64,000 bases of DNA from a virus (IMGVR_UViG_2775507133_000001:24278-88277), one strand, 5' to 3'. Shown: positions 5,001 through 30,299, numbered from the stretch's first letter. The notes: a model not told the origin generated them from the sequence alone. Made by a program: numbers and translations.

Positions 5001-5463
5001 AGAACGCTTCACGCAGCCGCGCCCGCAGCGCGGGTATGTCCTCGCCGGCGTCGAGGCCGGCCGCCAGTTCGGCGACCGCCGCGGCGGTGAGCCGGTCCCC
5101 GACGGCGCGGAGCAGGTGCTCGGTGTCGGTGACGTACGAGCCGAGCGACGCCGGTAGCTCGTCGCCCTGGTCGTGCCGCTCGGGGAGGTCGGTCCAGCCG
5201 TCGGGGAGGGTCTGCCCGCTGTCGGTGGCGGCCTGCTGGGCTGCTTGCTCGGCGACGCCGAGGAGGCGCCGCACGAGGCGCGGCATCCGGGCACGCCACA
5301 TGCGGCCGATCGCGGACAGGGAGAACCGGGCGGCGACGATCTCCATGGCCGTGGCGAGTTCCCTGCTGATCTCGGCGGCGACCTCGTCGAGGACCTGGCG
5401 GACTTCGTCGGCTACGTCCTGCTCGGCCTGGTCGAGGCGGGCCGCAAGGTCAGGCCGGGCCAT
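2014..5463 (-). CDS. MuF-like minor head protein fused to a 2H phosphoesterase domain and a capsid maturation protease-like region
   Basis: RIARTEATRAWN...KQWVTRHDARVRHAH...PGDP...NCRC (MuF); LHCTLMFLG and PHVTAIY (two HxT motifs); EGRRTGDGRIF and GATLVSIPAFADA (protease-like). Confidence 0.8.
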   Translation of the reverse strand: MARPDLAARLDQAEQDVADEVRQVLDEVAAEISRELATAMEIVAARFSLSAIGRMWRARMPRLVRRLLGVAEQAAQQAATDSGQTLPDGWTDLPERHDQGDELPASLGSYVTDTEHLLRAVGDRLTAAAVAELAAGLDAGEDIPALRARLREAFSREGAELGEMREERIARTEATRAWNAATLAAGQALTAPDRPLVKQWVTRHDARVRHAHNDVDGALRLVDEAFTVGGLPMRYPGDPLAPAALTVNCRCVLRLAPEQRTASVGVKDRPRPSVSESKADRVRRQIGDRMGLPASLLVGPADRRPAPTLTAAATTHTGAMIALIPAEEDAQRLALEDGELADELHCTLMFLGDADDWSSEQRVSLAESVTDYAQTAPIAAHVFGAAHWNPHGDEPVWVWSVGDDRDNRDPDALTLQDMRYAAAYAVFDALEPLPEIPDQHSSWHPHVTAIYSADTDRFADLIDRVGPIRFDRLRVAFAGEHVDIPLALAQEEPMADSIQAEAVEPAPPPVRTWTTPDDSALAYEGRRTGDGRIFAEGALRWDTGPWPLNYADRLGQAHEGARLAGAIAELGRDGDRLTGRGPMYPTTEAGWEVCSLLDQQPPAALGVSVDLDDVSIQVVDNTATDGDDEDEPLMLAASFASASIIRLDDGAWQITAQTRPEVTASGVELTHSTRTISVFTSSGGAISRATARQVFGAQLTAAADDPDPEDGVVVHEETAGDYLLRITDARVRGATLVSIPAFADARIVLDPPEQMASAPAVAAASGDEHDQVVAYVCSSPTPVTAREVSEALGLDPAAVHSHFARALEAGRIVRIARGQYVGASTLPEGDIAASSELTDEQRAAVEALDARYEQHGAQLVASALRVVQAREPFPAAWFREPTEEELPPDSGGVHVVDGRAYGWVAQAGVPHELHGRKVTIEKLAKRGIDTSYFLRTKLQLDDGSTVAVGPMTMNVGHHRDGFECETDVCQFDDSRTVGAVVTVGINERGMWFSGAAGEWLSAWDSLVYRACQPSYHMTQARDGSWQLKAVLSVPSPGHPSRLAASAQQPGLEQVAAVIDRSNIAITAAAAALEEPATADTGPEPVHERTVESPATDVGALATVLADPDALDGLAAALERRLSERAAARAEAEQLATLLDEPTTATTGGN

Positions 5464-5653: not shown

Positions 5654-5843
5654 GGCGGTCCTCCTGGTCGTCGGGGTCGTCGTGAACCTCGCACACGCTG
5701 ACCTTGCTGATGCGGGTGACGCCGGTCGGGAACAGGCCGAGCACGTCCACCGAGACGCCTGTGTTGGCCTTGCAGCGGCCGCACCAGGCCGGGCGGCCCG
5801 GGCCGGCGACGACGGTCACGTTGACGCGCAGGCCGGCGCTCAC
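5646..5843 (-). CDS. Hypothetical protein (WCGRC zinc-ribbon-like)
   Basis: GTG start overlaps the portal stop (GTGA). Confidence 0.55.
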   Translation of the reverse strand: MSAGLRVNVTVVAGPGRPAWCGRCKANTGVSVDVLGLFPTGVTRISKVSVCEVHDDPDDQEDRRG

Positions 5844-7636
5844 GCGGCGAGCCCCAGGCACTTGGAGAACCGCAGCACGGCCTCGGTCTCGTCGTACTGG
5901 TGGGACTTGCGGGCGGCGATCAAGGCCCGCGTGTAGTCGTCGAGGGCGAGCACGAGGCAGGGGCCGTCGACGCCGTACCGCTCGGCGACCTCGGGGACGC
6001 GCACCCACACCCCATCGAGCAGGTGGTAGACGTCGATCATGTCCGGGTCGACCGGGTACACCGTGTGGAGCTCCCCGGCCTTGATCTCGCGGGCCCGGCC
6101 GCGTTCGCTGCGCGGGCACGGCGGCTTGTTCCGCAGCCGCTCCCCGGCGGTGACGAGGGCGGCCCAGATCAGGGCGTCAGCGGCGGCCAGGAGGCCGTCG
6201 GGGATGCGGGGGCCGGACGAGGCGGGCAGCGTGTCCGGGATGCTGGTGGTCTCGTCTACGGGCAGGTCGCTCACGTTGTCCTCGTTCTCCTCACCGGGGG
6301 GCGTGTCTTGCGCGTCGTCGTCGGCCGCCTGCTTGCGGCGGGCCTGCTCCTCCTGGGGGGTGGGGGCGTCGGCCTCGTCGAAGCCGGTCTCGCGGCGGGC
6401 GGCTTCGGCACTGATGAGGCCGGCCTGGAACGCCTCCAGCGCAGTCTGGGCGCGGTTGGCCTGCACGCGGAGCTTGCTGGTGTCGAACCAGACGATCCAC
6501 TCGTTGGCGTCGTCGACGCCCTGCGCGCGGAGCATGGGGCGCAGCCACTGTGTGGTGAGGGCGTGGCACACGATCCGCAGCCGCGGTTCGACGCCGAGGC
6601 GGATCGCTTCGGCGGTGAGCGCCCACGCCCCCCAGTGGTTGACGTCGCCGAGGCCGAGGAGGATCTCCGCGGGGACTTCGAGGCCGTTGGCGAACCGGCG
6701 GATCGTCTCGTCGCGCAGCTGGATCGCCAGCTCGTCGAATGTCGACTCGAACGTCTGCCACCGGATGTCGCTGATCGACTCGGCGGGCACTTCCAGGATG
6801 ATCGGGACGGTCGCGGCGGCCGAGTCGGGTTCGCGGATCGCGGTCGCGGCGACTTCCAGGAAGATCTGGATCAGGTCGTCCTCGGCGTCACCGGCCTGCC
6901 CGGGCTGAGTGGGGAAGCGGGTGCCCTTGGGGACGAGGAGGACACCGCGGCCGGTGATCCGGGACCGGGCGATCGCCGATATCGCCGCGTTCAGCAACTG
7001 CAACTGCTCCAGCAACTGGAGGCTGGCGCGCACGGGCGAGTCGGCTTCGATGTGCCGCCAGGGGGCGGGCTTCCACACGCGGATCGCGATGGGGTCGGTG
7101 GAGTCGGGGTCCATCGCCTCGTCGAGGGCGGGGATCTCGAGTTCTTCGCCGTCGACCTCCGCGACCAGGCTGCCGCCCTGTTCCTCGCGGACCTCCAGCG
7201 TGGACAGGACGTGCCACGAGTACGAGGTGTTCTCCCCGTCCGTGGCGTCGTCCTCGTCCTCGCTGAGGTCGTCGTCTTCGTCGCGGGGACGGATGACGAT
7301 CCATCCCTCGCCGGCGGTCACGAGCTGCGGCCCGAAGTCGCCGAGGAGGTTCGACTGGCCGTCGGTGCCGCCTGCGATCTCGCGGACGATCTGCGTGGCC
7401 AGGTGCTCGTCGGGGGCGCGTTCCACGGTGTCGTCGTCGGTGCGGCGCCCCGCGTACAGGGTGGCGCCGGACATGGCGTTGCCGACCCACTCGCCGGCGA
7501 ACCGCACCTCCGGGGTGTCACGGAACGCTTCCCAGGCGCCCGCCTGCCACTTCTCGTCGGGCTTGCGTCGGCGGCTGTTCGCCGAGGACGTCTTGACGCT
7601 GTACCGCGCGGCTGCCGCGCTCACCTCGCGGGGCAT
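5840..7636 (-). CDS. Portal protein
   Basis: WQAGAWEAFRDTPEVRF, GEGWI, RVWKP..ADSPVR, GVLLVP, GLEVPAEILLG..NHW; lies between TerL and MuF. Confidence 0.8.
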   Translation of the reverse strand: MPREVSAAAARYSVKTSSANSRRRKPDEKWQAGAWEAFRDTPEVRFAGEWVGNAMSGATLYAGRRTDDDTVERAPDEHLATQIVREIAGGTDGQSNLLGDFGPQLVTAGEGWIVIRPRDEDDDLSEDEDDATDGENTSYSWHVLSTLEVREEQGGSLVAEVDGEELEIPALDEAMDPDSTDPIAIRVWKPAPWRHIEADSPVRASLQLLEQLQLLNAAISAIARSRITGRGVLLVPKGTRFPTQPGQAGDAEDDLIQIFLEVAATAIREPDSAAATVPIILEVPAESISDIRWQTFESTFDELAIQLRDETIRRFANGLEVPAEILLGLGDVNHWGAWALTAEAIRLGVEPRLRIVCHALTTQWLRPMLRAQGVDDANEWIVWFDTSKLRVQANRAQTALEAFQAGLISAEAARRETGFDEADAPTPQEEQARRKQAADDDAQDTPPGEENEDNVSDLPVDETTSIPDTLPASSGPRIPDGLLAAADALIWAALVTAGERLRNKPPCPRSERGRAREIKAGELHTVYPVDPDMIDVYHLLDGVWVRVPEVAERYGVDGPCLVLALDDYTRALIAARKSHQYDETEAVLRFSKCLGLAA

Positions 7637-7638
7637 GG

Positions 7639-7971
7639 TCAGTGGCCCAGCGAGTCGTCGAACCGGTTGGCGAGGGCCTGCGCGCCGGCGACGGCGAACC
7701 ACTCGATGCCGTGCACGAGCCAGGGCGCGTCACCCCAGCTGTCGGTGGCGAGGAGGTAGACGAGGAGCGTCAGGCCGGACAGCCAGAACCCGAAGCAGTA
7801 GATGCACGACACGAGCTGCACGATGAAGCCGCGCGCCCGGCTGTCGACCTTCTTCGCGTGCCAGAGGCCGAGGCGCTGCCGCGGGCCGTCGAGGATCGTG
7901 TCATGGACACCAAGTTGTGTCGCTCGGTACGCGGCGAAGCCGAGCAGTGCGAGCACGGGCAGAGAGATCAC
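7639..7971 (-). CDS. DUF1360-like membrane protein
   Basis: AAYRATQL..HDTI, LVSCIYCFGFW, and hydrophobic helices. Confidence 0.7.
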   Translation of the reverse strand: MISLPVLALLGFAAYRATQLGVHDTILDGPRQRLGLWHAKKVDSRARGFIVQLVSCIYCFGFWLSGLTLLVYLLATDSWGDAPWLVHGIEWFAVAGAQALANRFDDSLGH

Positions 7972-9754: not shown

Positions 9755-11314
9755 TCAGCGGATGCGCTGGGAGTACGGGGAAGCCGGCCGGTTGCCGGTG
9801 GGCTGGGGGGCCGTCGGCAGGGGTGCGTGGGCGATCGCCCCGGCGTTGGCTTCGGGGATCAGGCCGTACACGAGGACGCAGGAGGCGTCGATGCGGCCGG
9901 GGCTGTCGGGGTCGGTGGGCTGCCAGGTCGCCCACTCGCGCTCCAGGTCGGGGAACACCCCCCGCAGCCGGACCTTGTCCTGCACCATCTGCTGCGCGAT
10001 CGGCTCCGCGCGCAGCAGCTTGCCCTGCTTGGCGCGCACGGGGTGGATCGCGGGCATGAGGACGTTCTTCGGGATCTCCCCGTCCCGCTGGAGCGTCTCC
10101 CACGACGTGCGGATGGCCAGCACACACATGTCGCGGCCGAAGTTCCACTCCACGTAGATGATCGACGCGTTCGTGCGGTGGGCGAGGCGGCACGCGGCGG
10201 TGGACCACTCGGCCGAGGACATCGGCGCGGAGACGTCGTCGGTGACCCACACGCGGCCGTCGTCGCCGAGGAACCCGCCGATGACGCCCGCGGTGTCCCG
10301 GCCGCCGCCCGAGGGGTCGATGCTGACGGCGATCTTCTGCGGCTCCACCGGTGTGCCGGTGTCGCGGAGCAGGCGCAGCAGTTCCTCGGACACGAGCGCT
10401 CCCTCTGCGGGCTGGGGGTCGCCCTGGTACAGGGCGTGCCAGTCCCGGACGATCGACGTGGTCTTCTTCTGCGCCCACCAGGCGCGCAGCCGCGCCGTGT
10501 CGCGGGTGGGGATCTTCGGGTGCGGCAGGGGCTCGCCGGGCTCCCGGCCGAGCGGGTCGGGCCCGAACTTGGGGTCGGCGACCGCGGGGAGGTGGATTAC
10601 CTTCCACCGGCCGCCTTCCTCGATCCGCCCCTCTTCCTCGAGGCGCCGGCCGGCGAAGTCGTCCGGGTGCCATCGGGTCTGGATCGCGACGACAGCGCTG
10701 CGGTCGGGCTGGAGGCGGGACAGGGCGGCCGAGGAGTACCAGTCGTGCAGGGCACGCCGTGCGGCTTCCGACTCGGCGTCCGCGCGGTCCTTGTGCGGGT
10801 CGTCGATGATCAGCAGGTTCACGTCGAAACCCGTGAGACCCTTCCCCACCGACACGGACCGGCAGCCGCCGCCCTTCGTGACCTCCCAGTCCTGCATCGC
10901 ACCGGAGCCCGGCTTCAGACGCAGGTCCCACTCGTCGCCGAACTCTTCGACGTAGCCGCGGATCCTCTTGCCCCGGCGCAGCGCCAGGTCGTCGCCGTAC
11001 GACGTGACGGCGACCTTGTCCCGGCCGAACATGCACAGCCACCAGAACGGAAACCACTCCGCGACGCACGTGGACTTCCCGACCTGGGGCGGGGTCAGGA
11101 TCAGCAGCCGGTCGACGTCGCCCTGGGCGACCTCGGCGAGCGCCTGGCCGATCAGCTTGAGGTGCGGCCGCATCCGGAACCGGCGGTCGAGGCCGCGGGC
11201 GAGCGTCACCGGGTCGCGCAGCAGGTCCGCGCTCATCGCCCGGCGCGCGGCCTCCAGCTGCCGGTACACCTCCTCGTCGTCCAGGTGCTCCAGCTCGTCC
11301 ACGGCCGTCGTCAC
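9755..11314 (-). CDS. terL: Terminase large subunit
   Basis: PPQVGKST Walker A, LLIIDDPHK Walker B, IQTRWH, LYQGDP, SIDPS nuclease, SPGRIDA. Confidence 0.93.
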   Translation of the reverse strand: MTTAVDELEHLDDEEVYRQLEAARRAMSADLLRDPVTLARGLDRRFRMRPHLKLIGQALAEVAQGDVDRLLILTPPQVGKSTCVAEWFPFWWLCMFGRDKVAVTSYGDDLALRRGKRIRGYVEEFGDEWDLRLKPGSGAMQDWEVTKGGGCRSVSVGKGLTGFDVNLLIIDDPHKDRADAESEAARRALHDWYSSAALSRLQPDRSAVVAIQTRWHPDDFAGRRLEEEGRIEEGGRWKVIHLPAVADPKFGPDPLGREPGEPLPHPKIPTRDTARLRAWWAQKKTTSIVRDWHALYQGDPQPAEGALVSEELLRLLRDTGTPVEPQKIAVSIDPSGGGRDTAGVIGGFLGDDGRVWVTDDVSAPMSSAEWSTAACRLAHRTNASIIYVEWNFGRDMCVLAIRTSWETLQRDGEIPKNVLMPAIHPVRAKQGKLLRAEPIAQQMVQDKVRLRGVFPDLEREWATWQPTDPDSPGRIDASCVLVYGLIPEANAGAIAHAPLPTAPQPTGNRPASPYSQRIR

Positions 11315-11318
11315 AGCG

Positions 11319-11930
11319 CTACGCCTCCTCGTCGTCGTCGGGGTCGTCTTCGTCGTCGCCGCCCTCGACCGCGCGGATCCTCTGGTTCACCGACGCGGCC
11401 AGCTCCCCGAGCCGGGCACGCCGCTGCTCCGGGGCCATCTGCGCGAACTCCTCGAAGTGCTTCGCCAACGCGGTCGAGCCTTCGCCGGTGACGGCGATCG
11501 TCTGCGTGGGGTCGCCGAAAAGGACGCGCCGGTGCCGCATCGCGACGTCCATCAGCCGGATGAAGTCGCCGGGCGACAGTTCCTCGGGGCGGAGCGTCTG
11601 GAGCCGGCCGACGAGCTTGCCGACCGCCGCGCCGAGGATCTTCGCGTCGTTCTCGGCGGCCTTGCGGCGCTCCTCCAGCCACATGGCCTCGTACTGGCGG
11701 TCCAGGTGCCGGTCGTACGCCTCGACGCGCTCCCGCCACCGGAACCAGGCCGCCAGGTTCCTCACGTGCCCGTACGCGAGTGTCAGCCTCTGCGCTGCTT
11801 CTGTCAGGGTGCGGGTGCGGCCGAGGTCCCGGTAGGTGGCGAACTGACCGTGTTTGTGGGCTGACTCCCCGGGCTGGCGTTCCCAGGGGTCCAGGGTGGG
11901 GTCGAGGGTGATGGGCTGGCGTGTGCTCAT
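11319..11930 (-). CDS. Terminase small subunit-like protein
   Basis: PWERQPGES...FATYRDLG..RT...WRERVEAYD; directly upstream of terL. Confidence 0.7.
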   Translation of the reverse strand: MSTRQPITLDPTLDPWERQPGESAHKHGQFATYRDLGRTRTLTEAAQRLTLAYGHVRNLAAWFRWRERVEAYDRHLDRQYEAMWLEERRKAAENDAKILGAAVGKLVGRLQTLRPEELSPGDFIRLMDVAMRHRRVLFGDPTQTIAVTGEGSTALAKHFEEFAQMAPEQRRARLGELAASVNQRIRAVEGGDDEDDPDDDEEA

Positions 11931-12142
11931 GTGGCCCGTGCCTCCCTGTTCACGGTGCGGTCGTACCGGTAGTGCCACAGGGGTCCGTCGTCGCCTGGGT
12001 TCAGGGCGCGGACGTACATGAGTCGGTCGCCGTCGGGGTTGCGGAGTTCGTAGGTGTGGGGCGGGTTCCAGGGGTCGCCGGGGATGGCGAGGAGCCGGCC
12101 GTCGGCTGGGCCGCCTACGAACTGGACGCCGACGCCGCTCAT
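11927..12142 (-). CDS. Hypothetical protein (FVGGPADG)
   Basis: ORF track; ATGA overlaps at both ends. Confidence 0.6.
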   Translation of the reverse strand: MSGVGVQFVGGPADGRLLAIPGDPWNPPHTYELRNPDGDRLMYVRALNPGDDGPLWHYRYDRTVNREARAT

Positions 12143-13077
12143 GCCGGGTCGCTCGGGGTGTGGTTGGGTCCGGACAGGTACTCACCCGCCAGGCGTTCGA
12201 GGAGCTTCCAGCCCTGCCCCTGCTCGATCTCGCCGCGTCCCTCTGCTGCGGCTATCGCCTTGTTCAGGGTGACGGCGGCCGGGGCGGGGAGTGTGCGGGC
12301 TCCGAGGACGGTCTCCAGGCCGACGTTCCCCGAGTGGAGGTGGGTGCCGTCGGGGGCGGTGTAGCCGTCGGCGAGTTCGTCGAGGTGGCGTTCGACGATC
12401 GCGAGGATGGCGTGGAGTGCGGTGGCGACGTTGCCGACCTTGTGGGCGGCGTGGGTGGACGCGAGCGTGTCCAGGGTCCGCTCGTAGTCGGCGCGTGCGG
12501 CCAGCCAGGACTCGTTCTGGCCGACGCGGGCCTGGTCGAACGCTTCGCGGGCGGCTTCGAGCTCGGACGGCAGGAAGATCAGGGACACGGTGGCGAAGTC
12601 GAGGTTCGCTTCCGAGAGGCCCTCGGGGCTGACTTCGGCGAGGAGCTGGAGCTGTGCGTCGTCCAGGCCCGAGTAGGCGCGCCAGTCGACGTCGTCGAGT
12701 TCGTCGTAGAGCTGCTTGAGGGTGGCGGGGTCGTCCTCGCCTGCGATGGCGTTGTGGGACAGCTGGATCGCGACGAGCTGCTGCCGGGTGAGCTGCTCCT
12801 CGATGAGCATGCAGTCGATCTCGGTGAGGCCGGCTTCCGCTGCGGCCTTGGTGCGGTGGTTCCCGGACAGGATCAGCTCCTGGCCCTCCGCGTACTCGCC
12901 GCCGTTGTAGATCAGCGGGGTGGAGGTGAGGCAGCCGTCGCGGCGGATGTTCTCGACGAGGCGGTCCCACTCCTCCTTCCGCATGAAGCGGGCGTTCACC
13001 TCAAGGGGGGTGAGGGTGCGCGGGTCGCGGCGGACGAGGCGGGGCCGGAACAGCGGGGTGGTGGTGTCGGTCGTCAT
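12139..13077 (-). CDS. ParB/Srx N-terminal-domain protein
   Basis: NARFM...LVENIRRDG...ILSGNHRTKAA...LSHNAIAGEDD; ATG overlaps the stop of the upstream MTase/GNAT gene. Confidence 0.85.
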   Translation of the reverse strand: MTTDTTTPLFRPRLVRRDPRTLTPLEVNARFMRKEEWDRLVENIRRDGCLTSTPLIYNGGEYAEGQELILSGNHRTKAAAEAGLTEIDCMLIEEQLTRQQLVAIQLSHNAIAGEDDPATLKQLYDELDDVDWRAYSGLDDAQLQLLAEVSPEGLSEANLDFATVSLIFLPSELEAAREAFDQARVGQNESWLAARADYERTLDTLASTHAAHKVGNVATALHAILAIVERHLDELADGYTAPDGTHLHSGNVGLETVLGARTLPAPAAVTLNKAIAAAEGRGEIEQGQGWKLLERLAGEYLSGPNHTPSDPA

Positions 13078-14429
13078 CGCAGGTCCTTGCCGTGCTTGGT
13101 CTTCCACAGGGACAGGGCGTCGTCCAAGTCGTAGGCGCCGAGGGGGCCGCCGTACTGGAGCTGGTAGCGGTGGATCCCGTCGCCGGGGTCCTTGCTGCTG
13201 GCTTCGGTGCGTTTCTGGAGCTTCACGCCAGGGATGCCGCGCCCGTACTTCGCGCTGTTGGGTCGGTCGGTGAACGCGGTGGTGGCCCAGCCGTCGATGC
13301 GCTTGGAGAGGCTGCGCTGGATGAGGACCTGCGCCTCCTTCGTGGAAGCGGCCATCACGATGAGCTTGGCGAGGCGCCGGTAGCGGGTCCACGACACGGG
13401 GAAGTCCGACATGAGGTAGGCGGTGTTGGGGTCGAACTTCGGCGGCAGGTACGCGAACGCGCCGATCAGCTTGCCGTCGACGGCGACGCCGCACGCGATG
13501 AGCGGGCTGCCGGGCTTGATCGACTTGGACATGAACTGGGAGCGGATGCCCGCGAACTGGCCGCCGGTGAGGACGTGGAGGCTCATGCGGTCGCCGAGCG
13601 GCTCGTCGGGGCCGATCTTCGGCATAGGGATCGCCTCGACGGGCTGGCGGGGGCGGACGATGCGGCGGGGCCCGGCGGCGGCGTACACGTAGATCGGCAG
13701 GCCGCGGTTCGCGGTCTGGACGACGCCGGCGAGGCGGTCGCGCAGCTCGGGGCGTTCGATGTGCAGGCCGAGGACCCAGTTGGGCCGGTCCTGGACCTGC
13801 TCGATGATGCGTTCCTTGCCGTCCTCGGTGAGGTCGTCGAACGACGGCTCGGGCCAGTGGAACGCGGCGTCGATGGACGCGAACTGCGCCTGGTAATCCT
13901 TCGCGTAGAACGGGGGGAACATCACCACCGGGGCGTCGGGGGGCACCTCCTGGTCGAGGTAGTCGCGGACGTCGCCGGCGTAGAACGAGCCCAGCTTGGT
14001 TTCCAGGGCGCGGAGCTTGGTGGCGGTCTTCTCGTGCATCCGCGCCCATTGGTCGCGGGTGGCGTCCATCATCCGCCGGTAGTAGGCGCCGTCCTTACCG
14101 ACGTACTGGAGGAAGCGGGTGCCCAGCATCAGCGTCGCCATGAGGTCGGCGCGGTCTTCCAGGTACGGGTGGAGCCAGCCGAGGGTGTCCTCGTACTCCT
14201 CGCGGAGGGTGAAGTTGAGCGGGTCGCCGGCGAGGTACCAGCCGAGAGCGCACGAGTACGCCTGGATGTCGTTGCCGTGGACGCGCCGCTGGTCGCCGAA
14301 CCGGGCGTGGAGGACGCGTTCGATGGTGAAGTTGCCCGAGCATCCGACGTAGATGTCGTCGCCGGGCCAGGTCCCGGCGTGCTCGTAGATGATCGACCGC
14401 AGGGGCGCGGGTATCGATCCGTGGAACAT
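13074..14429 (-). CDS. Adenine-methyltransferase-fold protein fused to a GNAT/Mom-like domain (putative DNA-modifying, anti-restriction enzyme)
   Basis: DIYVGCSGNFTIE (motif I-like), VHGNDI (motif II), VMFPPFY (motif IV-like); C-terminal GVAVDGKLIGAFAY...YLMSDF...RLAKLIV...TTAFT resembles a GNAT fold. Confidence 0.6.
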   Translation of the reverse strand: MFHGSIPAPLRSIIYEHAGTWPGDDIYVGCSGNFTIERVLHARFGDQRRVHGNDIQAYSCALGWYLAGDPLNFTLREEYEDTLGWLHPYLEDRADLMATLMLGTRFLQYVGKDGAYYRRMMDATRDQWARMHEKTATKLRALETKLGSFYAGDVRDYLDQEVPPDAPVVMFPPFYAKDYQAQFASIDAAFHWPEPSFDDLTEDGKERIIEQVQDRPNWVLGLHIERPELRDRLAGVVQTANRGLPIYVYAAAGPRRIVRPRQPVEAIPMPKIGPDEPLGDRMSLHVLTGGQFAGIRSQFMSKSIKPGSPLIACGVAVDGKLIGAFAYLPPKFDPNTAYLMSDFPVSWTRYRRLAKLIVMAASTKEAQVLIQRSLSKRIDGWATTAFTDRPNSAKYGRGIPGVKLQKRTEASSKDPGDGIHRYQLQYGGPLGAYDLDDALSLWKTKHGKDLR

Positions 14430-14514
14430 GGGCCGCTCCAATGAAGTCCGTGGCGCAGGCCCGGGGTGCAACCTGCGGGTTTGGCCCATTGTGAGTGGTC
14501 TTGGGGGGTGCGAA

Positions 14515-14546
14515 GGGCCCCTCACCGGGGGCGTGGCGAGGGGCCC
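14515..14546 (-). other. GC-rich hairpin just 3' of the tRNA-like gene (processing, attenuation or terminator signal)
   Basis: gggcccctcacc...ggcgaggggccc inverted repeat. Confidence 0.45.
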
Positions 14547-14553
14547 TGCATCG

Positions 14554-14628
14554 TGGAGCGCCGGCCAGGGCTTGCACCTGGATCGCCCGACTGGAAGTCG
14601 GGCCGTGTTACTTACTACGCACCAGCGC
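14554..14628 (-). tRNA. tRNA-Gly(UCC)-like RNA with non-canonical D and T loops
   Basis: GCGCTGG TG CGTA GTAAGTAA CACG G CCCGA CTTCCAG TCGGG CGAT CCAGG TGCAAGC CCTGG CCGGCGC T CCA: 7-bp acceptor stem, 5-bp anticodon and T stems, TCC anticodon, U73, encoded CCA. Confidence 0.88.
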
Positions 14629-14659
14629 GGGGTGGCCGTGAAGCGATCGGCCGCTTCGG

Positions 14660-14689
14660 ACGTTAGAGGCCGAGCCCATGGGGGATCAA
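14660..14689 (-). promoter_or_regulatory. HrdB-type promoter driving the tRNA-like gene and MTase/GNAT-ParB-terminase genes
   Basis: TTGATC-N18-TAACGT on the minus strand, about 30 nt upstream of the tRNA 5' end. Confidence 0.55.
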
Positions 14690-15881: not shown

Positions 15882-16823
15882 TCAGCCTTGCCAGCAGGCG
15901 ACGGCCGCGACGCGCGGGGACCGTTCGGCCTCCGCGATGATCTCCGCCATGGACAGGTCCTTGCGGAAGCGGTGCCCGATCTTCTGCTCGATGCCGGCGA
16001 GGCGGGCGGCGGGCTCCGGGTTGAGCTGCGCGGACAGGACGAGCGCCGGCCGGGACGCGAGGACGCAGAACATGCACGACAGGCGGGGCATCCCGGCGAG
16101 GTAGGCGGGGTGCTTGCGCCGCCCGGAGGTCTCGACGGCCATCCACACGTCCAGCTCCGACCAGGCGTGCACCGGGTACCAGACGTCGACGTGCCGCAGG
16201 GTGTTCGAGGCGCCCCAGCCGGGGCCCACGCCCTTCGGTACCGGCTGCTTGCGCGCCTTGTACTTCTCGGCCTTGGCCCGCTTGGGCACGCACGTCTCGC
16301 AGGGGCAGGTCCAGGCGCCTTCGTGGGAGAACGCGAGGAGCTTGCGGCGGGCCGGTGACTCCTCGGCGCGCAGGCCCATGACGTTGAGGATGCGGACGCG
16401 GCCGGTGTGCCCGGCGTCGAGGGCTTCCTGGACGAGGCGGGTCATCAGGGTGCGGACGGGGCCTCGCTTGAAGTCGGAGGTGCACCACCGGTTGTCGGCG
16501 TCGGGGAACATGCCGCGTTCCTCGATCCGGTCGATGAGGTCGCCGCCCTTCCTCGCGACGACCTCGAACCGCAGGCCGTACGCGGCGGCGTGCTCGGCGG
16601 CCAGCTCGCGGGTGCCTTCCCACTCGGCGGAGCCCAAGTCAGCGTGGACGCACACGATGCGGTCGGCGACGCCGGCCGCGCGGGCGTGCTGCACGAGTTC
16701 GTGCAGCATCGCGATGGAGTCCTTGCCGCCCGACAGGTTCGCAATGATCCACGTGTACGACGCCAGGTCGGGGACCTCGGTGCCGAAGCCGGGCAGGTCG
16801 AACGCCAGTTGAGCGGTGGGCAT
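15882..16823 (-). CDS. PAPS-reductase-family (PP-loop) protein
   Basis: NLSGGKDS, HADLG..EW, RWCTSDFK, GLRAEESPAR, HPAY..GMPRLSCMFC. Confidence 0.88.
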   Translation of the reverse strand: MPTAQLAFDLPGFGTEVPDLASYTWIIANLSGGKDSIAMLHELVQHARAAGVADRIVCVHADLGSAEWEGTRELAAEHAAAYGLRFEVVARKGGDLIDRIEERGMFPDADNRWCTSDFKRGPVRTLMTRLVQEALDAGHTGRVRILNVMGLRAEESPARRKLLAFSHEGAWTCPCETCVPKRAKAEKYKARKQPVPKGVGPGWGASNTLRHVDVWYPVHAWSELDVWMAVETSGRRKHPAYLAGMPRLSCMFCVLASRPALVLSAQLNPEPAARLAGIEQKIGHRFRKDLSMAEIIAEAERSPRVAAVACWQG

Positions 16824-20889: not shown

Positions 20890-20985
20890 GTTTTGAACTA
20901 CTTCCATCCTTCCCTAGTTGGCTTTGGCTAGCCAGTTTTACCAAGCAGATTACGTAAAGAATCTCAAAAGAGATCGCGGCTGTCA
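20890..20985 (-). promoter_or_regulatory. ~95-bp promoter/operator repeat, copy 1
   Basis: gttttgaactacttccatccttccctagttggctttggctagccagttttaccaagc; minus strand TGGCTA-N17-AAGGAT. Confidence 0.85.
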
Positions 20986-23868
20986 GGCGGCGACCAGCTC
21001 GCCATGGATGACCGCCCGCAGCCGGGACGCGATCCACGTTCCGACCGCCGGGCTCACCGCGTTACCGAACCCGTCCACCTGGTTCCGCGCGCTCCCCCAC
21101 ACCTTGAACGTCCCCTTGCGGCCAGCGAAGTCGACGTCGAAGCCGCAGCCGACGCCGACCTCGCTGGGCTTCATCATCCGGAAGAAGCACTCCTCCAGCG
21201 GCAGGTCGGCCAGCGACGCCTGCCACTGGGCGACGAGCAGCCCGGTCGTGTCCCGCGTGGTGAGCGTGCCCAGCGGGTCGGTCACCGGGTGCGGCGCGGT
21301 CTCGTCGCCCTTCGGCCCGTTCTGCTTGAACCAACCGGCGCTCAGCAGGCCCGGGATCTGGTCGGAGGTGACCGTGGGCATCGCCTCGGCGTGCACCGTG
21401 GGCAGCGTGTTCTTCCGGAACGGGACGATCCCGGATGACACCACGGCGAGCGTCTCCGAACCGACCTGCGTGGGCAGCGGGATGTGCGCGCCCCGGGGGC
21501 CGCCCTGGTAGTTGTCGACCGCGAGGAACACCGCCTTCTCGTGCGTTGCGGTGACCGTGTCCATCGGGCTGAGGATGTGCTGGCCGTCGCCGTTGTGCCG
21601 GTGCGCGGCGATGATCTGACCGGCCATGAGGAGCGCGGTCTCCTGCTGGCTGGTCTGCGTGGACATCGGCTGCCACGGGTGCCGCTCGATGCCGTGCACC
21701 GACTTCGCGGGCATCAGGACCGCCGGGTACTGGGCGAAGCGCTGGCGGCAGCGTTCGGCGCGGGCGAGCGTCGTCTCGGCGAGCGGGACGTCCCGGTCGC
21801 CGATCTTGGTTCCCAGGTCGGACAGGTCGAGGGCGACCAGCGAGGGCGTCATCGGCGGGACGACCTCGCGGCGGCAGCTCGGGCAACGGTAGTTGTACTG
21901 CTTGCCGTAGCAGACCGACCCCGAGGCGGGCACGCCCGTCTTCCACGACCAGACCGCTTCCACGGTCTTGTCGCAGTGCTGGCAGAACGACGCCGGCCGG
22001 TGGTCGAGGTCGGGGGTGGGCAGCGACTCGTCCCAGAACGCGATGTAGAGCCGGTCGCGGCTCTGGGGGACGCCGAAGAACTGCGAGTTCAGGTACAGCA
22101 CCCGGTAGCGGTAGCCCAGCTTCTCGAACTCGTGGAGCCACCACCGGTAGGTGCTGCCGTCGCCGATCTTGGGGCGGCCGAGGATCGCCGGCCCCCACGA
22201 CTGGAGGCCGGTCGTGCACTCGACGAGGATCAGCCGCGGGTGGTGCCGCCCGGCGTACTGCAGAACGCACGTCGCGGTCGCGCGGTCCCGTTCGGAGCGC
22301 GTCACCCGCGCCTCGAACTCCGGGTCTTCCAGCTCGAACAGCCCGAGGCCCTGCTCGTACGCCCTCTGCGTGTTCGCCTGGGAGTGGTTGACGCAGTTGT
22401 GGACCAGGACGCCGTCGACCACGTACGTGTGGTCCTCCTCGACGGTCATGTTGTAGACCGTGACCGTCTCGCCCGGGGCGATGGCGCCGCTGGCCTTGCC
22501 CCACCGGAAGCCGTCCGCATCACGGTGCTTGGGCTTCCGCTGCTGGGTCAGGTGCGCGGTGACCGTCCAGCGGGGGCTCTGTCGCACCGTGCGGCCTTCG
22601 ATGACCGCCGTGGCCTTCGGCCGCTGGTAGTGGACCGTGGCGTAGTAGCCCAGCGAGGTCAGCAGGAGACGCACGCCGACGGTGAGCTGCTTGGACACCG
22701 ACATCGACTGGACGCGCAGGCCGTCCCGGCTGATGTGCCCGTCGGCGGACAGGTAGCCATCCAGGAAGGAACGGCGGATCTCTTCGGGCGCGAACAGCAG
22801 CCAGGTCGGCAGCTTCTTGCCTGCGGCGCCGTGGCCGAAGTGGTCGGCCAGGAAGGCGGCGAGGCCCACCCGGTTGACGTGGAAGGTGTCGGTCGTGCGC
22901 TGCCGGGTGCGGTTCCACGGGAGGCCGGTCCGTGCCGCGAGTTCCTCGGCGAGTGCGTCGCTCTCGTCGTGGCTGGCGCAGATCGTCACGCGGGACCACA
23001 CGTTGCCCCGCTCGGGTCGGCGGGCGAGCCACCCGTCGCCGACCCACCGGCCGAGCACCCACGCGACGTCGGCGGTGACCGTGCCGAGCCCGTCGACCAC
23101 GGGCAGGGCGTCGGTCTCGCCGGTGAGGATCGGGGTGCCGACCCACTCGCCGGCCAGGGAGTCGGCCCGCACCTCACGCGGTGCGCCGAGGACGAGGAGT
23201 GCGCGCCTGTTCGCGTTCGCCTGGCTGCACTTCCGGGAGCAGAACAGGCGGGCCGTGCTGGTGTTCCTGAACTGCGGGGCCGGGCCGCCGCATTCGAGGC
23301 AGCGTGCGCCGTCGAGCGGCTGGTACCTACGGCGAGGCTGGACGGCGCGCGTGGCCGTAGCCGCCATGAACGGGTGGTCCGGGGTGCAGGTGATCGCGGT
23401 GGTCGCGTTGACGGTAACCGTGGGCCGGTCAACCGCCGAGGTGTGCGTGACCGGGCGCCAGCGCGACCGGTGCGTCCACACCTCTTCGCCGACCTTCACG
23501 TCCTCGATCGGGATGAGCCCGCGCCGGGTGAGCACGAGCGCCCCGGCGGCGAAGCAGGAGACACCGGCGGCGAGCAGGTCGGCCGGGGGCAGGTCCCGCG
23601 CGGAGTGGTAGTCGGAGGCGTCCGGGTCGACCAGGTCGGCGATCCAGTGCTCGGCGGTCGGGTGGTTCGTCTCGTGGACCCGCACTTTGTACTCGTTGTG
23701 GTTCGCCGCCATGATCGTGTCGAATCCGGCGTCCTCGATGCCCTTGGTGAGCCCGCCGAAGCCGCTGAACAGGTCGCACGCGGTCAGGGAGTCGTGGCGG
23801 AAGACGCGCCGTCTCCTTGCCGGCCGGTGGGCAGCGATCCGGAACTTCTTCCTCTTCACAGAGGCCAT
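20983..23868 (-). CDS. DNA (cytosine-5) methyltransferase containing an intein
   Basis: DLFSGFGG, S-C catalytic site split by the intein, GVPQSRDR, QVDGFGNAVSP. Confidence 0.92.
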   Translation of the reverse strand: MASVKRKKFRIAAHRPARRRRVFRHDSLTACDLFSGFGGLTKGIEDAGFDTIMAANHNEYKVRVHETNHPTAEHWIADLVDPDASDYHSARDLPPADLLAAGVSCFAAGALVLTRRGLIPIEDVKVGEEVWTHRSRWRPVTHTSAVDRPTVTVNATTAITCTPDHPFMAATATRAVQPRRRYQPLDGARCLECGGPAPQFRNTSTARLFCSRKCSQANANRRALLVLGAPREVRADSLAGEWVGTPILTGETDALPVVDGLGTVTADVAWVLGRWVGDGWLARRPERGNVWSRVTICASHDESDALAEELAARTGLPWNRTRQRTTDTFHVNRVGLAAFLADHFGHGAAGKKLPTWLLFAPEEIRRSFLDGYLSADGHISRDGLRVQSMSVSKQLTVGVRLLLTSLGYYATVHYQRPKATAVIEGRTVRQSPRWTVTAHLTQQRKPKHRDADGFRWGKASGAIAPGETVTVYNMTVEEDHTYVVDGVLVHNCVNHSQANTQRAYEQGLGLFELEDPEFEARVTRSERDRATATCVLQYAGRHHPRLILVECTTGLQSWGPAILGRPKIGDGSTYRWWLHEFEKLGYRYRVLYLNSQFFGVPQSRDRLYIAFWDESLPTPDLDHRPASFCQHCDKTVEAVWSWKTGVPASGSVCYGKQYNYRCPSCRREVVPPMTPSLVALDLSDLGTKIGDRDVPLAETTLARAERCRQRFAQYPAVLMPAKSVHGIERHPWQPMSTQTSQQETALLMAGQIIAAHRHNGDGQHILSPMDTVTATHEKAVFLAVDNYQGGPRGAHIPLPTQVGSETLAVVSSGIVPFRKNTLPTVHAEAMPTVTSDQIPGLLSAGWFKQNGPKGDETAPHPVTDPLGTLTTRDTTGLLVAQWQASLADLPLEECFFRMMKPSEVGVGCGFDVDFAGRKGTFKVWGSARNQVDGFGNAVSPAVGTWIASRLRAVIHGELVAA
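22396..23556 (-). mobile_element. Intein with LAGLIDADG homing endonuclease (387 aa)
   Basis: Begins CFAAGALVLTRRG; WVLGRWVGDG and FLDGYLSADG motifs; ends VYNMTVEEDHTYVVDGVLVHN followed by C. Confidence 0.93.
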
Positions 23869-30269: not shown

Positions 30270-30299
30270 GGCGTGTCCCTTCGCTGGCTGGTTGGGGTG

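What the first reader, a model, noticed from the sequence alone, without database searches (positions are those of the whole stretch)
12139..14689. Candidate tRNA-dependent DNA hypermodification system: dedicated tRNA-Gly + MTase-fold/GNAT fusion + ParB, upstream of terminase
Seen in sequence: a promoter-like TTGATC-N18-TAACGT precedes a tRNA-Gly(UCC)-like gene (14554-14628). This is followed by a 451-aa protein with degenerate adenine-MTase motifs (YVGCSG, GND, FPPFY) and a GNAT/Mom-like C-terminal domain. A translationally coupled ParB-like gene and TerS/TerL come next. Established: GNAT-fold enzymes such as FemABX use aminoacyl-tRNAs as donors, and Mu Mom is a GNAT-fold enzyme making N6-carbamoylmethyladenine. 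I recall a report that Mom uses Gly-tRNA-Gly; this should be verified. Inference: the phage encodes its own glycyl donor RNA for an enzyme that glycylates DNA bases. The MTase fold may flip the base or add a second modification, and the reaction may be coupled to packaging, protecting virion DNA from restriction.
Basis: partly seen in the sequence, partly recalled or inferred. Interest (0 to 1): 0.93.

Follow-up and report, generated by a model that had tools for sequence, protein, structure and literature searches.

The report
Phage enzyme with its own glycine tRNA
A prophage carries a small operon of an odd, apparently non-decoding glycine tRNA, a fused methylase-like/acyltransferase-like enzyme and a ParB-like partner; the trio recurs in over a hundred phages and most likely uses tRNA-carried glycine to decorate phage DNA against host restriction.

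Summary
Window 14554-14628 (-) is a tRNA-Gly(UCC). It is followed by a 451-aa DAM-like (PF22555) + GNAT-like (PF22559) fusion, a translationally coupled ParB-like gene, then TerS and TerL.

Of 143 non-redundant homologous loci (30-92% protein identity; Actinomycetota, Bacillota and other phyla), 118 have a same-strand tRNA-Gly-like gene within 350 nt upstream, and about 9 more have one nearby. A ParB-like gene follows in 143 of 148 loci.

The tRNAs keep what glycyl-tRNA synthetase reads: G1-C72, C2-G71, G3-C70, U73, C35 and C36. They are relaxed where decoding matters. The wobble base is U, C, A or G, with at least 20 switches on the tree, and positions 32-38 can pair in 86 of 93.

Mu Mom is experimentally shown to move glycine from Gly-tRNAGly onto DNA adenine (Nat Commun 2026). 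A Mom subclade also has a tRNA-Gly(UCC) gene just upstream.

Best reading (about 0.7): a dedicated glycyl-donor tRNA for tRNA-dependent DNA hypermodification. DNA as the acceptor, and the product, are inferred. My literature searches found no description of this linkage.

The parts
14660..14689 (-). Promoter-like element upstream of the tRNA: TTGATC, 18-nt spacer, TAACGT.
   Evidence: Read directly. It matches 7 of 12 consensus positions and the scan did not list it. A TAnnnT -10-like hexamer at this place is conserved in 10 of 10 close relatives, while the -35 is shared by only 3 of them.
14554..14628 (-). Non-canonical tRNA-Gly(UCC) with encoded CCA; the proposed dedicated glycyl donor.
   Evidence: ARAGORN and Rfam at 39.1 bits. 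It has G1-C72, C2-G71, G3-C70, U73, C35 and C36. Its D loop lacks GG and its T loop reads UGC instead of UUC. The MFE fold gives an 8-bp anticodon helix capped by a UCC triloop. Homologous elements occur in about 127 of 143 related loci.
14509..14550 (-). GC-rich hairpin of about 13 bp immediately 3' of the tRNA's CCA. It may be a terminator or a processing/stability element; its role is unknown.
   Evidence: strand folding of 14425-14556: -58.6 kcal/mol, z = -2.57.
13614..14426 (-). DAM-like domain of the fusion protein (residues 2-272). It has a GCSGN motif, the conserved D54, and [F/Y]PPF in place of (D/N)PP(Y/F).
   Evidence: PF22555, E 6.9e-105. Column statistics are. hhalign places FPPF on E. 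coli Dam DPPY, though the score is not significant. The Atlas feature score is 0.92 to viral clusters carrying PF02086. An intein sits right after FPPFY in homologue P0014.
13089..13592 (-). GNAT-phage-like domain of the fusion protein (residues 280-447).
   Evidence: PF22559, E 1.9e-56. Invariant G323, L356, K394 and Y395; near-invariant R296, D342, S363, E365 and R397.
13074..14429 (-). Whole 451-aa DAM-like/GNAT-like fusion gene. The ATG at 14429 is preceded by GGAG.
   Evidence: Homologues start at the same MF(H/Q)G.
12139..13077 (-). ParB-like partner gene (312 aa), translationally coupled by an ATGA overlap.
   Evidence: It lies directly downstream in 143 of 148 non-redundant loci. Invariant motifs are NAR, SG(N)HR, QLSHN, GxDD and GLDD.
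11927..12142 (-). 71-aa ORF coupled to the ParB-like stop codon by an ATGA overlap; no family match.
11319..12185 (-). Terminase small subunit. The true start is probably internal, near 11930.
   Evidence: phrog_6299, E 5.7e-23, on residues 96-262 of the 288-aa ORF.
9755..11314 (-). Terminase large subunit.
   Evidence: phrog_38, E 2e-82; Pfam Terminase_6N.

Best explanation
The cassette is a three-part phage DNA-hypermodification module.

1. From its own promoter the phage makes a tRNA-Gly that is no longer built for the ribosome. It still carries every known recognition element for bacterial glycyl-tRNA synthetase and a CCA end. The host GlyRS therefore charges it with glycine (inferred).

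2. The DAM-like/GNAT-like fusion takes the glycyl group from this tRNA and puts it on a base in double-stranded phage DNA. The most likely site is N6 of adenine, as Mu Mom does. The DAM-like domain has lost the catalytic D/N of motif IV but keeps the PPF adenine-stacking motif and a nucleotide-pocket G and D. It would supply sequence recognition and base flipping, and the GNAT-like domain the acyl transfer (inferred).

3. The ParB-like protein, made in fixed ratio by translational coupling, acts as loader or activator on dsDNA, as in ParB-dependent phage thymine dioxygenases (inferred by analogy).

Expression beside the terminase genes would mark progeny DNA before packaging and protect it from restriction.

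A private, ribosome-poor tRNA gives the enzyme a donor pool that need not compete with translation. This is the logic of the staphylococcal non-proteogenic tRNAGly used by the Fem transferases.

Shown here: the anatomy, the conserved linkage and the selective pattern in the tRNA. Inferred: charging, glycyl transfer, DNA as the acceptor, the product, and the ParB role.
For: Linkage:
- I collected 162 loci, 148 non-redundant.
- Of the 143 with at least 350 nt upstream, 118 have a same-strand tRNA-Gly-like gene within 350 nt. That count includes 3 intein-bearing genes whose true start is 28-99 nt after the tRNA.
- Five more have one farther upstream within 3 kb. One is cut by a contig end (L133). 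Two have it downstream (L110; L160, weak at E 0.006). One has it 4.3 kb upstream (L148).
- Sixteen have none.
- In about 1.1 Mb of these loci ARAGORN called no other tRNA species except two dubious 89-nt tRNA-Arg.
- The host has about one tRNA-Gly per Mb.

Selective pattern, in 117 distinct tRNA sequences:
- GCG/CGC at positions 1-3/70-72 in 115, and U73 in 117.
- C35 and C36 are invariant in the 91 aligned sequences.
- C50-G64 in 100.
- Pairs 1-72, 2-71 and 3-70 never vary, while pairs 4-7 covary freely. 96.6% of cells are paired, against 71% in shuffles.
- These invariant positions are the published glycine identity set: U73, G1-C72, C2-G71, C35 and C36, plus C50-G64 and G10 for the Thermus-type enzyme (PMC9976931, passages).

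Relaxed decoding positions, in 93 distinct ARAGORN-called tRNAs:
- Position 34 is U56, C23, A12, G2, with at least 20 state changes on a 130-protein tree.
- Positions 32-38 are Watson-Crick pairable in 86 of 93, against 17 of 83 other host tRNAs.
- U33 is lost in 26 of 93, and position 37 is a pyrimidine in 20 of 93.
- Several have 6- or 8-nt anticodon loops.
- The host already has canonical tRNA-Gly GCC, UCC and CCC.

Precedent: Mom transfers glycine from Gly-tRNAGly to N6-adenine in dsDNA, and all isoacceptors work.

Independent echo: in two samples of Mom-family loci, 11 of 12 tRNAs found were tRNA-Gly(UCC) on the same strand. Ten of these lay 120-290 nt upstream of the mom homologue, in 7 distinct loci.

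Enzyme: the Pfam domains; [F/Y]PPF never has D or N; an intein sits at that motif.

Partner: a ParB-like gene is adjacent in 143 of 148 loci. Phage ParB homologues activate a DNA-modifying enzyme on dsDNA (PMC13229309, abstract).

Staphylococcal non-proteogenic tRNAGly carry TGC or TGT instead of TTC in the T loop (PMC7826273, passages). The window tRNA has TGC, as do 20 of 117 in the family.
Against: - No biochemical or modification data exist for any member.
- The GNAT-like domain shows no significant sequence relation to Mom. hhalign gives 3.1% probability, E 0.014, over 23 columns. Against a single Mom sequence the probability is 0.4%. The Atlas hit to a partly Mom-annotated cluster scores 0.88, which is a lead only.
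- A profile of the whole protein finds nothing in the PDB by sequence.
- The fold, the relative position of the two active sites, and ParB binding could not be modelled.
- Sixteen of 143 loci, mostly at 30-40% identity, have no tRNA within 3 kb. A complete 51-kb phage genome (G001) has none by the model. The tRNA is therefore dispensable in some lineages. L015, a 92%-identical relative, also lacks it.
- The odd T and D loops are not universal: TTC in 85 of 117 and GG in the D loop in 52 of 117.
- The Mom-linked tRNAs look canonical, with loop CUUCCAA. A private tRNA therefore need not be non-decoding.
- One lineage (L161/L162) keeps the tRNA and the DAM-like domain without a GNAT domain. This does not fit a simple 'GNAT does the transfer' picture.
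- The tRNA sequences used for pairing counts were chosen by ARAGORN, which biases the percentage paired upward.
Confidence: 0.7

Rival explanations
1. The tRNA is a glycyl donor for the fusion enzyme, but the acceptor is not a DNA base. It could be a protein (for example the ParB-like partner or a packaging protein), a nucleotide precursor or another small molecule.
For: GNAT-fold aminoacyl-tRNA transferases act on peptidoglycan precursors, lipids, proteins and natural products (Fig. 5 legend of PMC13219725). The acceptor was not tested here. The GNAT-like domain has no detectable sequence relation to Mom.
Against: The fusion to a Dam-like domain keeps the PPF base-stacking motif under strong conservation, and an intein sits at it. 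A ParB-like partner is obligatory. The cassette lies next to the terminase genes. The only tested enzyme family that also has upstream tRNA-Gly genes, Mom, modifies DNA.
Confidence: 0.1
2. The fusion is an ordinary anti-restriction DNA methyltransferase (m6A) with an accessory acetyl-CoA-dependent GNAT domain. The tRNA is linked for another reason, such as transcript processing or stability or promoter sharing.
For: Database names: 'putative antirestriction adenine methyltransferase', 'methyltransferase' and 'DNA methyltransferase'. G32 and D54 of the nucleotide-binding motifs are conserved. Many phage methyltransferases carry ParB-like domains (phrog_498 hit).
Against: The catalytic D/N of motif IV is absent in 108 of 108 homologues. 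There is no Pfam PF02086 hit. A processing signal would not need C35, C36, U73, G1-C72, C2-G71 or an encoded CCA, which are the conserved parts.
Confidence: 0.08
3. The tRNA is the target or a decoy, not a donor. Either the GNAT-like domain acetylates Gly-tRNAGly like the TacT toxins, or the phage tRNA soaks up or replaces tRNAGly hit by host defences such as toxSAS FaRel2.
For: TacT recognises U73 plus G71, a pair specific to tRNAGly (PMC9976931, passage). FaRel2 targets tRNAGly (title and abstract start only, PMC11559606). Both U73 and G71 are invariant here.
Against: This does not explain the Dam-like fusion, the obligatory ParB-like partner or the late-gene position. A replacement tRNA for translation should keep a decoding-competent loop, which most lack. 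The Mom family shows the same linkage, and there the tRNA is known to be the donor.
Confidence: 0.07
4. It is an ordinary phage tRNA kept for codon usage, or an attP/attB remnant, and lies next to the fusion gene by descent only.
For: Phages often carry tRNAs, and tRNA-Gly genes are common integration sites in actinobacteriophages (PMC10865867, Table 2 passage). Close relatives share synteny by descent.
Against: The linkage holds from 92% down to about 34% protein identity and across phyla. The tRNA sequences differ and carry compensatory changes. Anticodons include ACC. Positions 32-38 pair in 86 of 93. The tRNA is whole and internal in virion genomes such as Jeon. In a complete 62-kb phage genome it is the only tRNA found (G066). 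No other tRNA species accompanies it.
Confidence: 0.03

Closest known systems
Phage Mu Mom (Pfam PF25680): GNAT-fold enzyme that makes N6-carbamoylmethyl-adenine from Gly-tRNAGly
   Same: It is a phage, late-expressed, anti-restriction enzyme that acts after replication on dsDNA and uses tRNA-carried glycine (PMC13219725). Some Mom-family genes also have a tRNA-Gly(UCC) gene directly upstream.
   Different: There is no significant sequence similarity and no PF25680 hit. Mom is a stand-alone dimer of about 240 aa with an HTH-like insert. Here the GNAT-like domain is fused to a Dam-like domain and paired with a ParB-like protein. Mom accepts all host isoacceptors. Here a private tRNA with a non-decoding anticodon arm is the rule. 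The chemistry of this family is untested.
Non-proteogenic tRNAGly(UCC) of staphylococci, used by FmhB/FemA/FemB
   Same: These are dedicated tRNAGly species that GlyRS charges but EF-Tu and the ribosome use poorly, and that serve a GNAT-fold aminoacyl transferase. They have TGC or TGT instead of TTC in the T loop (PMC7826273). The window tRNA has UCC, TGC and no GG in the D loop.
   Different: Those are cellular genes that serve cell-wall synthesis. Here the tRNA is virus-encoded, sits in the same cassette as its presumed enzyme, and varies freely at position 34. The T- and D-loop oddities are present in only part of the family. EF-Tu affinity was not assessed.
ParB-dependent phage thymine dioxygenases (5mYOX176/ParB176)
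   Same: A phage ParB homologue without an obvious DNA-binding domain is encoded next to a DNA-modifying enzyme, which needs it on dsDNA (PMC13229309, abstract).
   Different: The enzyme class is different (Fe/2OG dioxygenase).
Dam / D12-class N6-adenine DNA methyltransferases (PF02086)
   Same: The order of motifs is shared: a G-rich motif I, an acidic residue after strand 2 (D54), and a PP[F/Y] motif IV. hhalign places FPPF on DPPY. Atlas features score 0.92 to PF02086-bearing viral clusters.
   Different: The motif IV D/N is replaced by F or Y in 100 of 108 homologues and is never D or N. PF02086 does not hit. A methyltransferase activity is therefore doubtful.
TacT/AtaT-type GNAT toxins acting on aminoacyl-tRNA
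   Same: They are GNAT enzymes that read tRNAGly through U73 and G71.
   Different: There the tRNA is the target and acetyl-CoA the donor. They have no DNA-directed domain and no ParB partner.

Membership tests
PF22555 + PF22559 fusion family ('putative antirestriction adenine methyltransferase') | Both Pfam domains score above their gathering scores, in this order. | tested here: met
   350.6 and 190.8 bits against a cut-off of 27. The same architecture is seen in the listed homologues.
PF22555 + PF22559 fusion family ('putative antirestriction adenine methyltransferase') | A ParB-like gene lies directly downstream. | tested here: met
   ATGA overlap in the window. Adjacent in 143 of 148 non-redundant loci.
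Mom family (PF25680) | Sequence membership, by Pfam Mom model or profile similarity. | tested here: not met
   No PF25680 hit even at E 10. hhalign probability is 3.1% profile to profile.
Mom family (PF25680) | GNAT fold with the essential residues R111, S124, D149 and R151. | not testable with these tools
The only sequence hint is YL(M/L)SDFP aligning with WLHDDMP in a non-significant alignment.
Mom family (PF25680) | Uses Gly-tRNAGly to modify adenine in dsDNA. | not testable with these tools
   Only comparative evidence is available: the conserved tRNA-Gly linkage.
Dam / D12 N6-adenine methyltransferase (PF02086) | Motif IV (D/N)PP(Y/F) with a catalytic D or N. | tested here: not met
   Position 171 is F69, Y31, C3, A3, H2 of 108, never D or N.
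Dam / D12 N6-adenine methyltransferase (PF02086) | SAM-binding motif I and the acidic residue of motif II. | tested here: inconclusive
   GCSGN with G32 in 108/108 and D54 in 107/108 are conserved. Their equivalence to the Dam residues rests on motif order, not on a significant alignment.
Canonical elongator tRNA-Gly | Cloverleaf with the GlyRS identity set: G1-C72, C2-G71, U73, C35 and C36. | tested here: met
   The identity set is taken from PMC9976931.
Canonical elongator tRNA-Gly | Open 7-nt anticodon loop (positions 32-38 unpaired, U33, purine at 37), T loop TTC, and G18G19. | tested here: not met
   In the window tRNA, C32-G38 and U33-A37 can pair and the MFE fold has a triloop. The T loop is TGC and the D loop lacks GG. 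Family-wide, 32-38 is pairable in 86 of 93, against 17 of 83 host tRNAs. That these features are needed for decoding is established knowledge and was not tested here.
Non-proteogenic tRNAGly (staphylococcal type) | UCC anticodon, TGC/TGT instead of TTC in the T loop, and poor EF-Tu binding through the T stem. | tested here: inconclusive
   UCC and TGC are met in the window. TGC occurs in only 20 of 117 family members. The T stem is C49-G65, C50-G64, A51-U63. EF-Tu affinity was not computed or measured.
ParB/Srx superfamily | ParB N-terminal domain with the GxxR box. | tested here: inconclusive
   Pfam ParB_N scores 17.8 bits, below the 26.3 cut-off. ParB-like PHROGs hit down to 3e-13. SG(N)HR is invariant in 49 sequences. 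No HTH domain was found.

The most novel reading that the evidence does not exclude
A widespread, previously unrecognised class of phage DNA hypermodification in which the virus encodes its own cofactor RNA. This is a tRNA-Gly that has been released from decoding and kept only as a GlyRS-chargeable glycyl carrier.

The Dam-like domain would not be a mere base-flipper. It would be a methyltransferase fold repurposed so that its adenosine pocket holds the glycyl-A76 end of the tRNA in place of SAM. Glycine would then be delivered to the flipped base and give a modification chemically distinct from Mom's.

The lineage that keeps the tRNA and the Dam-like domain but has no GNAT domain (L161/L162) would fit this reading.
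Probability: 0.2. Interest if true: 0.95.

Novelty: new variant of a known kind. Interest (0 to 1): 0.88.

Why it matters
tRNA-dependent DNA hypermodification has been shown for one enzyme, Mom. If this reading is right, the strategy is used by a second family unrelated in sequence. That family has 818 clusters at 50% identity and occurs in phages of Actinomycetota, Bacillota and other phyla.

Phages would also have evolved private, non-decoding tRNAs as cofactors for it. That would be a new job for viral tRNA genes, which are usually explained by codon usage.

It would also:
- give annotators a rule: a tRNA-Gly with a closed anticodon arm beside this fusion is not a translation gene;
- explain why the 'methyltransferase' lacks its catalytic residue;
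- offer a compact three-gene cassette for site-directed aminoacylation of DNA.

It is directly testable, because cultured SEA-PHAGES isolates carry the cassette.

Tried and rejected

Sequence and profile comparisons.
- A profile of 108 homologues against PDB sequences gave only chance hits with E of at least 0.22.
- hhalign to Mu Mom, to a 39-sequence Mom profile and to E. coli Dam were all non-significant. I use them only for motif placement.
- NCBIfam had no model for the fusion or the ParB-like protein.
- One search used an out-of-frame reference for the C-terminal part by my mistake and found nothing. One search repeats it in frame.

Expression. No RNA holder was listed among public runs, and two soil metagenome runs hold only a small share of words.

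Controls that failed.
- Relatives of E. coli Dam in viral contigs: none found.
- Relatives of the window's portal protein in viral contigs: none found.
- The Mom loci therefore served as the out-group sample, and they turned out to carry tRNA-Gly genes themselves.

Search sensitivity.
- The RF00005 whole-record search missed the annotated Jeon tRNA (0 first-look candidates). Its negatives are therefore weak.
- The same caution applies to the R1 negatives for G001, G002, G004 and G005.
- A bare pattern of acceptor-stem complementarity plus CGCT occurs by chance about 1.1 times per shuffled locus. It was not used as evidence, and the L152 candidate stays unresolved.
- Model R1 was built on the RNAalifold consensus. 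That consensus lacks the D stem and closes the anticodon loop. It was used for detection only.

Short 'Dam-only' proteins from the representative search (P0209, P0210, P0240, P0244, P0249, P0256) look like truncated or frameshifted fusions, not a separate architecture.

Tree. FastTree on 130 rows. Nineteen of 148 loci were left out because the match was partial, interrupted by an intein or held a stop: L052, L056, L057, L058, L061, L064, L076, L077, L082, L090, L096, L103, L138, L155, L157, L158, L159, L161, L162. The counts are parsimony minima on an unrooted quick tree.

Rejected reading: attP or integration remnant. See the rival explanations.

Literature. Four searches, one for the Pfam and NCBI names (0 papers) and one for the carrier phages found no paper describing a tRNA gene linked to this fusion or to mom homologues. 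In the Mom paper's main text, 'tRNA gene(s)' occurs only in Methods, and 'ParB', 'fused', 'adjacent' and 'upstream' do not occur. Its supplements, and those of the other papers, were closed and may hold gene-neighbourhood data that bear on novelty.

Full report
WHAT IS THERE

The window is part of a prophage in an 8.36-Mb Streptomyces-type genome (G000, contig C5). All the genes below lie on the minus strand, in this order:
- a promoter-like element at 14689-14660;
- a tRNA-Gly(UCC) at 14628-14554;
- a GC-rich hairpin;
- a 451-aa protein at 14429-13074;
- a 312-aa ParB-like protein at 13077-12139;
- a 71-aa ORF;
- TerS, then TerL at 11314-9755.

The portal gene (5840-7702) and a MuF-like gene lie further downstream. 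Upstream lie a membrane protein, a PadR regulator and a PAPS-reductase-family gene.

ARAGORN finds this one tRNA in 64 kb, and Rfam confirms it at 39.1 bits.

The 451-aa protein matches two curated Pfam families end to end: PF22555 'DAM-like-phage1' (E 6.9e-105) and PF22559 'GNAT-phage-like' (E 1.9e-56). Its stop codon overlaps the ParB-like start (ATGA), and the ParB-like stop overlaps the next start in the same way. Only the promoter is weak by consensus (7 of 12; not listed). A TAnnnT -10-like hexamer is nevertheless conserved at that spot in 10 of 10 close relatives.

THE RECALLED PRECEDENT IS TRUE

Silva et al. (Nat Commun 2026, PMC13219725) show that Mu Mom, a GNAT-fold enzyme, transfers glycine from Gly-tRNAGly to N6 of adenine in dsDNA. 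An on-base rearrangement to N6-carbamoylmethyl-adenine follows. All three E. coli isoacceptors work, while Gly- or Ala-tRNAAla do not. I read the abstract, the discussion, the structure section, the metagenome-mining method and searched passages.

THE CO-OCCURRENCE TEST

I collected homologous loci in four ways:
- the protein alone against viral contigs;
- a 14-sequence alignment against viral contigs;
- the same alignment against one genome per species;
- cultured phages.

This gave 162 loci, of which 148 are non-redundant, at 30-92% protein identity. By record title the hosts include Streptomyces, Kitasatospora, Embleya, Nonomuraea, Micromonospora, Actinoplanes, Kutzneria, Nocardiopsis, Neobacillus and Cytobacillus. 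MAGs of Clostridia/Oscillospiraceae, Selenomonadaceae, Synergistaceae, Chloroflexi and Dormiibacterota are also represented. The family is large: 818 clusters at 50% identity with E up to 1e-3, and 268 with E up to 1e-30.

I searched with ARAGORN on all loci and with a covariance model built from 91 of the tRNAs. Among the 143 non-redundant loci with at least 350 nt upstream, the result is:
- 118 have a same-strand tRNA-Gly-like gene within 350 nt of the start codon. This includes three genes split by an intein, where the true start is 28-99 nt after the tRNA.
- 5 have it 433-2763 nt upstream.
- 1 is cut by the contig end (L133).
- 2 have it downstream (L110; and L160, where a D-arm-less copy follows the ParB-like gene, E 0.006).
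- 1 has it 4.3 kb upstream (L148).
- 16 have none. These are mostly the most divergent proteins, but also L015 (92% identity) and L054 (57%).

Other points from these loci:
- Mycobacterium phage Jeon's own GenBank annotation shows tRNA-Gly(tcc) immediately before the homologue.
- Gordonia phage Jollymon has a copy that ARAGORN misses because the T arm is degenerate. It keeps the acceptor stem, U73, CCA and a CCC anticodon loop.
- Apart from two dubious 89-nt tRNA-Arg calls, no other tRNA species appears in about 1.1 Mb of these loci.
- The host genome has about one tRNA-Gly per Mb.
- In a complete 62-kb phage genome (G066) the linked tRNA is the only tRNA found.
- The ParB-like gene follows directly in 143 of 148 loci. 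The five exceptions are truncated copies.

WHAT SELECTION KEEPS IN THE tRNA

Conserved features:
- In 117 distinct sequences, positions 1-3 and 70-72 are GCG/CGC in 115. The discriminator is U in 117, C50-G64 is present in 100, and CCA is encoded in 65.
- C35 and C36 are invariant in the 91 aligned sequences.
- On a hand-given cloverleaf, 96.6% of cells pair, against 71% in shuffles and about 40% with slid partners. Pairs 1-72, 2-71 and 3-70 never vary, while pairs 4-7 and the other stems change on both sides. The sequences were picked by ARAGORN, so the percentage paired is biased upward.

The invariant set equals the published glycine identity set: U73, G1-C72, C2-G71, C35 and C36, plus C50-G64 and G10 for the Thermus-type GlyRS (Giege and Eriani 2023, passages).

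The positions that serve decoding are free:
- In 93 distinct ARAGORN-called tRNAs the wobble base is U56, C23, A12, G2.
- It changes state at least 20 times on a 130-protein FastTree tree, while positions 35 and 36 are invariant in the 91-sequence alignment.
- ACC is not a normal bacterial anticodon (established knowledge).
- Positions 32 and 38 can form a Watson-Crick pair in 86 of 93, and positions 33 and 37 can also pair in 70. The figure for 32-38 in the other tRNAs of the host genome is 17 of 83.
- U33 is replaced in 26 of 93, and position 37 is a pyrimidine in 20 of 93.
- Several copies have 6- or 8-nt loops.
- The window's tRNA folds with an 8-bp anticodon helix capped by the UCC triplet. 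It lacks GG in the D loop and has UGC instead of UUC in the T loop.
- The host has canonical tRNA-Gly GCC, UCC and CCC with U33, A37, A38, GG and TTC.

The simplest reading is an RNA kept for being glycylated, not for reading codons.

The T-loop TGC is also the hallmark of the staphylococcal non-proteogenic tRNAGly that feed the Fem transferases and bind EF-Tu poorly (Rietmeyer et al. 2021, abstract and passages). In this family, however, TGC is present in only 20 of 117.

AN UNPLANNED INDEPENDENT CHECK

I sampled Mom-family loci as an out-group for the tRNA scan.
- In 80 loci (410 kb) ARAGORN found four tRNAs. Three were tRNA-Gly(UCC) on the same strand, 120-280 nt upstream of the mom homologue. 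The fourth was a tRNA-Ala on the other strand.
- In 49 relatives of one of these, all eight tRNAs found were tRNA-Gly(UCC) on the same strand, seven of them 130-290 nt upstream.
- Together this makes seven distinct loci.
- These tRNAs have canonical CUUCCAA loops.

So the one family whose use of Gly-tRNAGly is proven also recruits a tRNA-Gly gene to the same position. The searched main text of the Mom paper does not mention this. Its supplements were closed.

THE PROTEINS

Dam-like half, in 108 homologues:
- G32 is invariant.
- C30, S31, N33, T35, E37 and R38 are nearly invariant, and D54 is 107/108.
- Motif IV reads [F/Y]-P-P-F, with F69, Y31, C3, A3, H2 at the first position and never D or N.
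- hhalign places this motif on DPPY of E. coli Dam, in a non-significant alignment.
- Atlas features point to D12-class methylase clusters at 0.92.
- Inteins occur in several homologues. In P0014 the intein begins right after FPPFY, which marks the motif as functionally central.

The domain therefore looks like an adenine-flipping methylase fold that has lost the residue needed to activate N6 for methyl transfer.

GNAT-like half:
- Invariant residues are G323, L356, K394 and Y395. Near-invariant residues are R296, D342, S363, E365 and R397.
- No significant relation to Mom was found.
- An Atlas hit at 0.88 to a cluster in which 21% of members carry the Mom family is a lead only.

ParB-like protein:
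- It has invariant NAR, SG(N)HR, QLSHN, GxDD and GLDD motifs.
- It resembles the ParB-like N-terminal domains fused to phage methyltransferases (phrog_498).
- A 2026 PNAS paper shows phage ParB homologues acting as activators of a DNA-modifying dioxygenase on dsDNA (abstract).

MECHANISM AND ODDS

I put about 0.7 on the following model. The phage tRNA is charged by host GlyRS. The fusion enzyme transfers the glycyl group to a base in phage DNA, most likely adenine N6. The ParB-like partner assists. The whole serves anti-restriction.

Shown here: anatomy, linkage and the selection pattern. Inferred: charging, transfer, the acceptor, the product and the ParB role.

Points against or unexplained:
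- Sixteen loci lack the tRNA.
- There is no detectable Mom homology.
- There is no structural model.
- One lineage (L161/L162) has the Dam-like domain fused to a TerS-like tail without a GNAT domain, and still follows a tRNA-Gly-like gene. This keeps open the bolder idea that the Dam-like pocket itself holds glycyl-A76.

The rivals are scored separately: another acceptor, a plain methylase, the tRNA as target or decoy, and an ordinary tRNA or att remnant. None explains both the identity-set conservation and the Dam-like/ParB context.

NOVELTY

The protein domains are catalogued in Pfam, and sources name the protein a 'putative antirestriction adenine methyltransferase'. My searches found no paper that links it, or mom homologues, to a dedicated tRNA gene.

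The kind, tRNA-dependent DNA hypermodification, is known from Mom. The architecture, the private non-decoding tRNA and the ParB partner make this a new variant of it. Cultured phages carry the cassette, so the prediction can be tested directly.

Noticed in passing
L222 2806-2879, L225 2800-2873, L227 2724-2797; L272, L279, L289, L299 (tRNA ends 130-290 nt before the mom homologue): Bona fide Mom-family genes (PF25680 relatives, 66-69% identical to Mu Mom) in seven distinct viral contigs have a canonical-looking tRNA-Gly(UCC) gene on the same strand just upstream. Eleven of the twelve tRNAs found in 129 Mom loci were Gly(UCC).
   Followed up: partly
G000 contig C13:211329-211400 (locus L163 7330-7401, minus strand): The host chromosome holds a second non-canonical tRNA-Gly(UCC), with 32-38 pairable and TGC in the T loop. 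It lies between a malate dehydrogenase gene and an MFS transporter gene and is not next to any DAM-GNAT gene. Near-identical copies or parts occur in 34 of 61 sampled Streptomyces genomes, often several per genome. Five such genomes have no DAM-GNAT homologue. Partial repeats suggest it may serve as an integration site.
   Followed up: partly
Homologues P0014, P0015, P0018, P0028, P0042 and others; loci L058, L077, L103: Inteins (Hint domain, about 250 aa) interrupt the fusion protein in several lineages. In P0014 the intein starts immediately after the FPPFY motif.
   Followed up: partly
L161 and L162, 2909-4059: A variant cassette. A tRNA-Gly-like gene sits 92 nt before a 356-aa protein made of the DAM-like domain plus a TerS-like C-terminal tail. 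There is no GNAT domain. A canonical ParB (ParB_N + HTH_ParB) is divergently upstream, and TerL is downstream.
   Followed up: partly
L121 1478-1626; L151 2771-2922: Two tandem tRNA-Gly-like genes precede the fusion gene. In L151 they carry different anticodons (CCC and ACC).
   Followed up: no
window 20983-23868, 27715-28542, 29061-30317, 15882-16823 (all minus strand): The same prophage also carries a 961-aa DNA-methyltransferase-like protein with an internal insert that matches unrelated families (possibly an intein). It further carries a second methyltransferase-like protein, a second ParB-like protein and a PAPS-reductase/DndC-like protein. This is a heavy investment in DNA-modification genes.
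   Followed up: no
window 14509-14550 (minus strand); Jollymon L001 about 4905-4945: A strong GC-rich hairpin follows the tRNA's CCA end. In Jollymon it is terminator-like and has a T run. It may end a separate tRNA transcript or act as a processing or stability element.
   Followed up: partly
window 2014-5463 (minus strand): A 1149-aa protein combines MuF-like head-morphogenesis matches with segments that match RNA-ligase and protease families of PHROGs.
   Followed up: no
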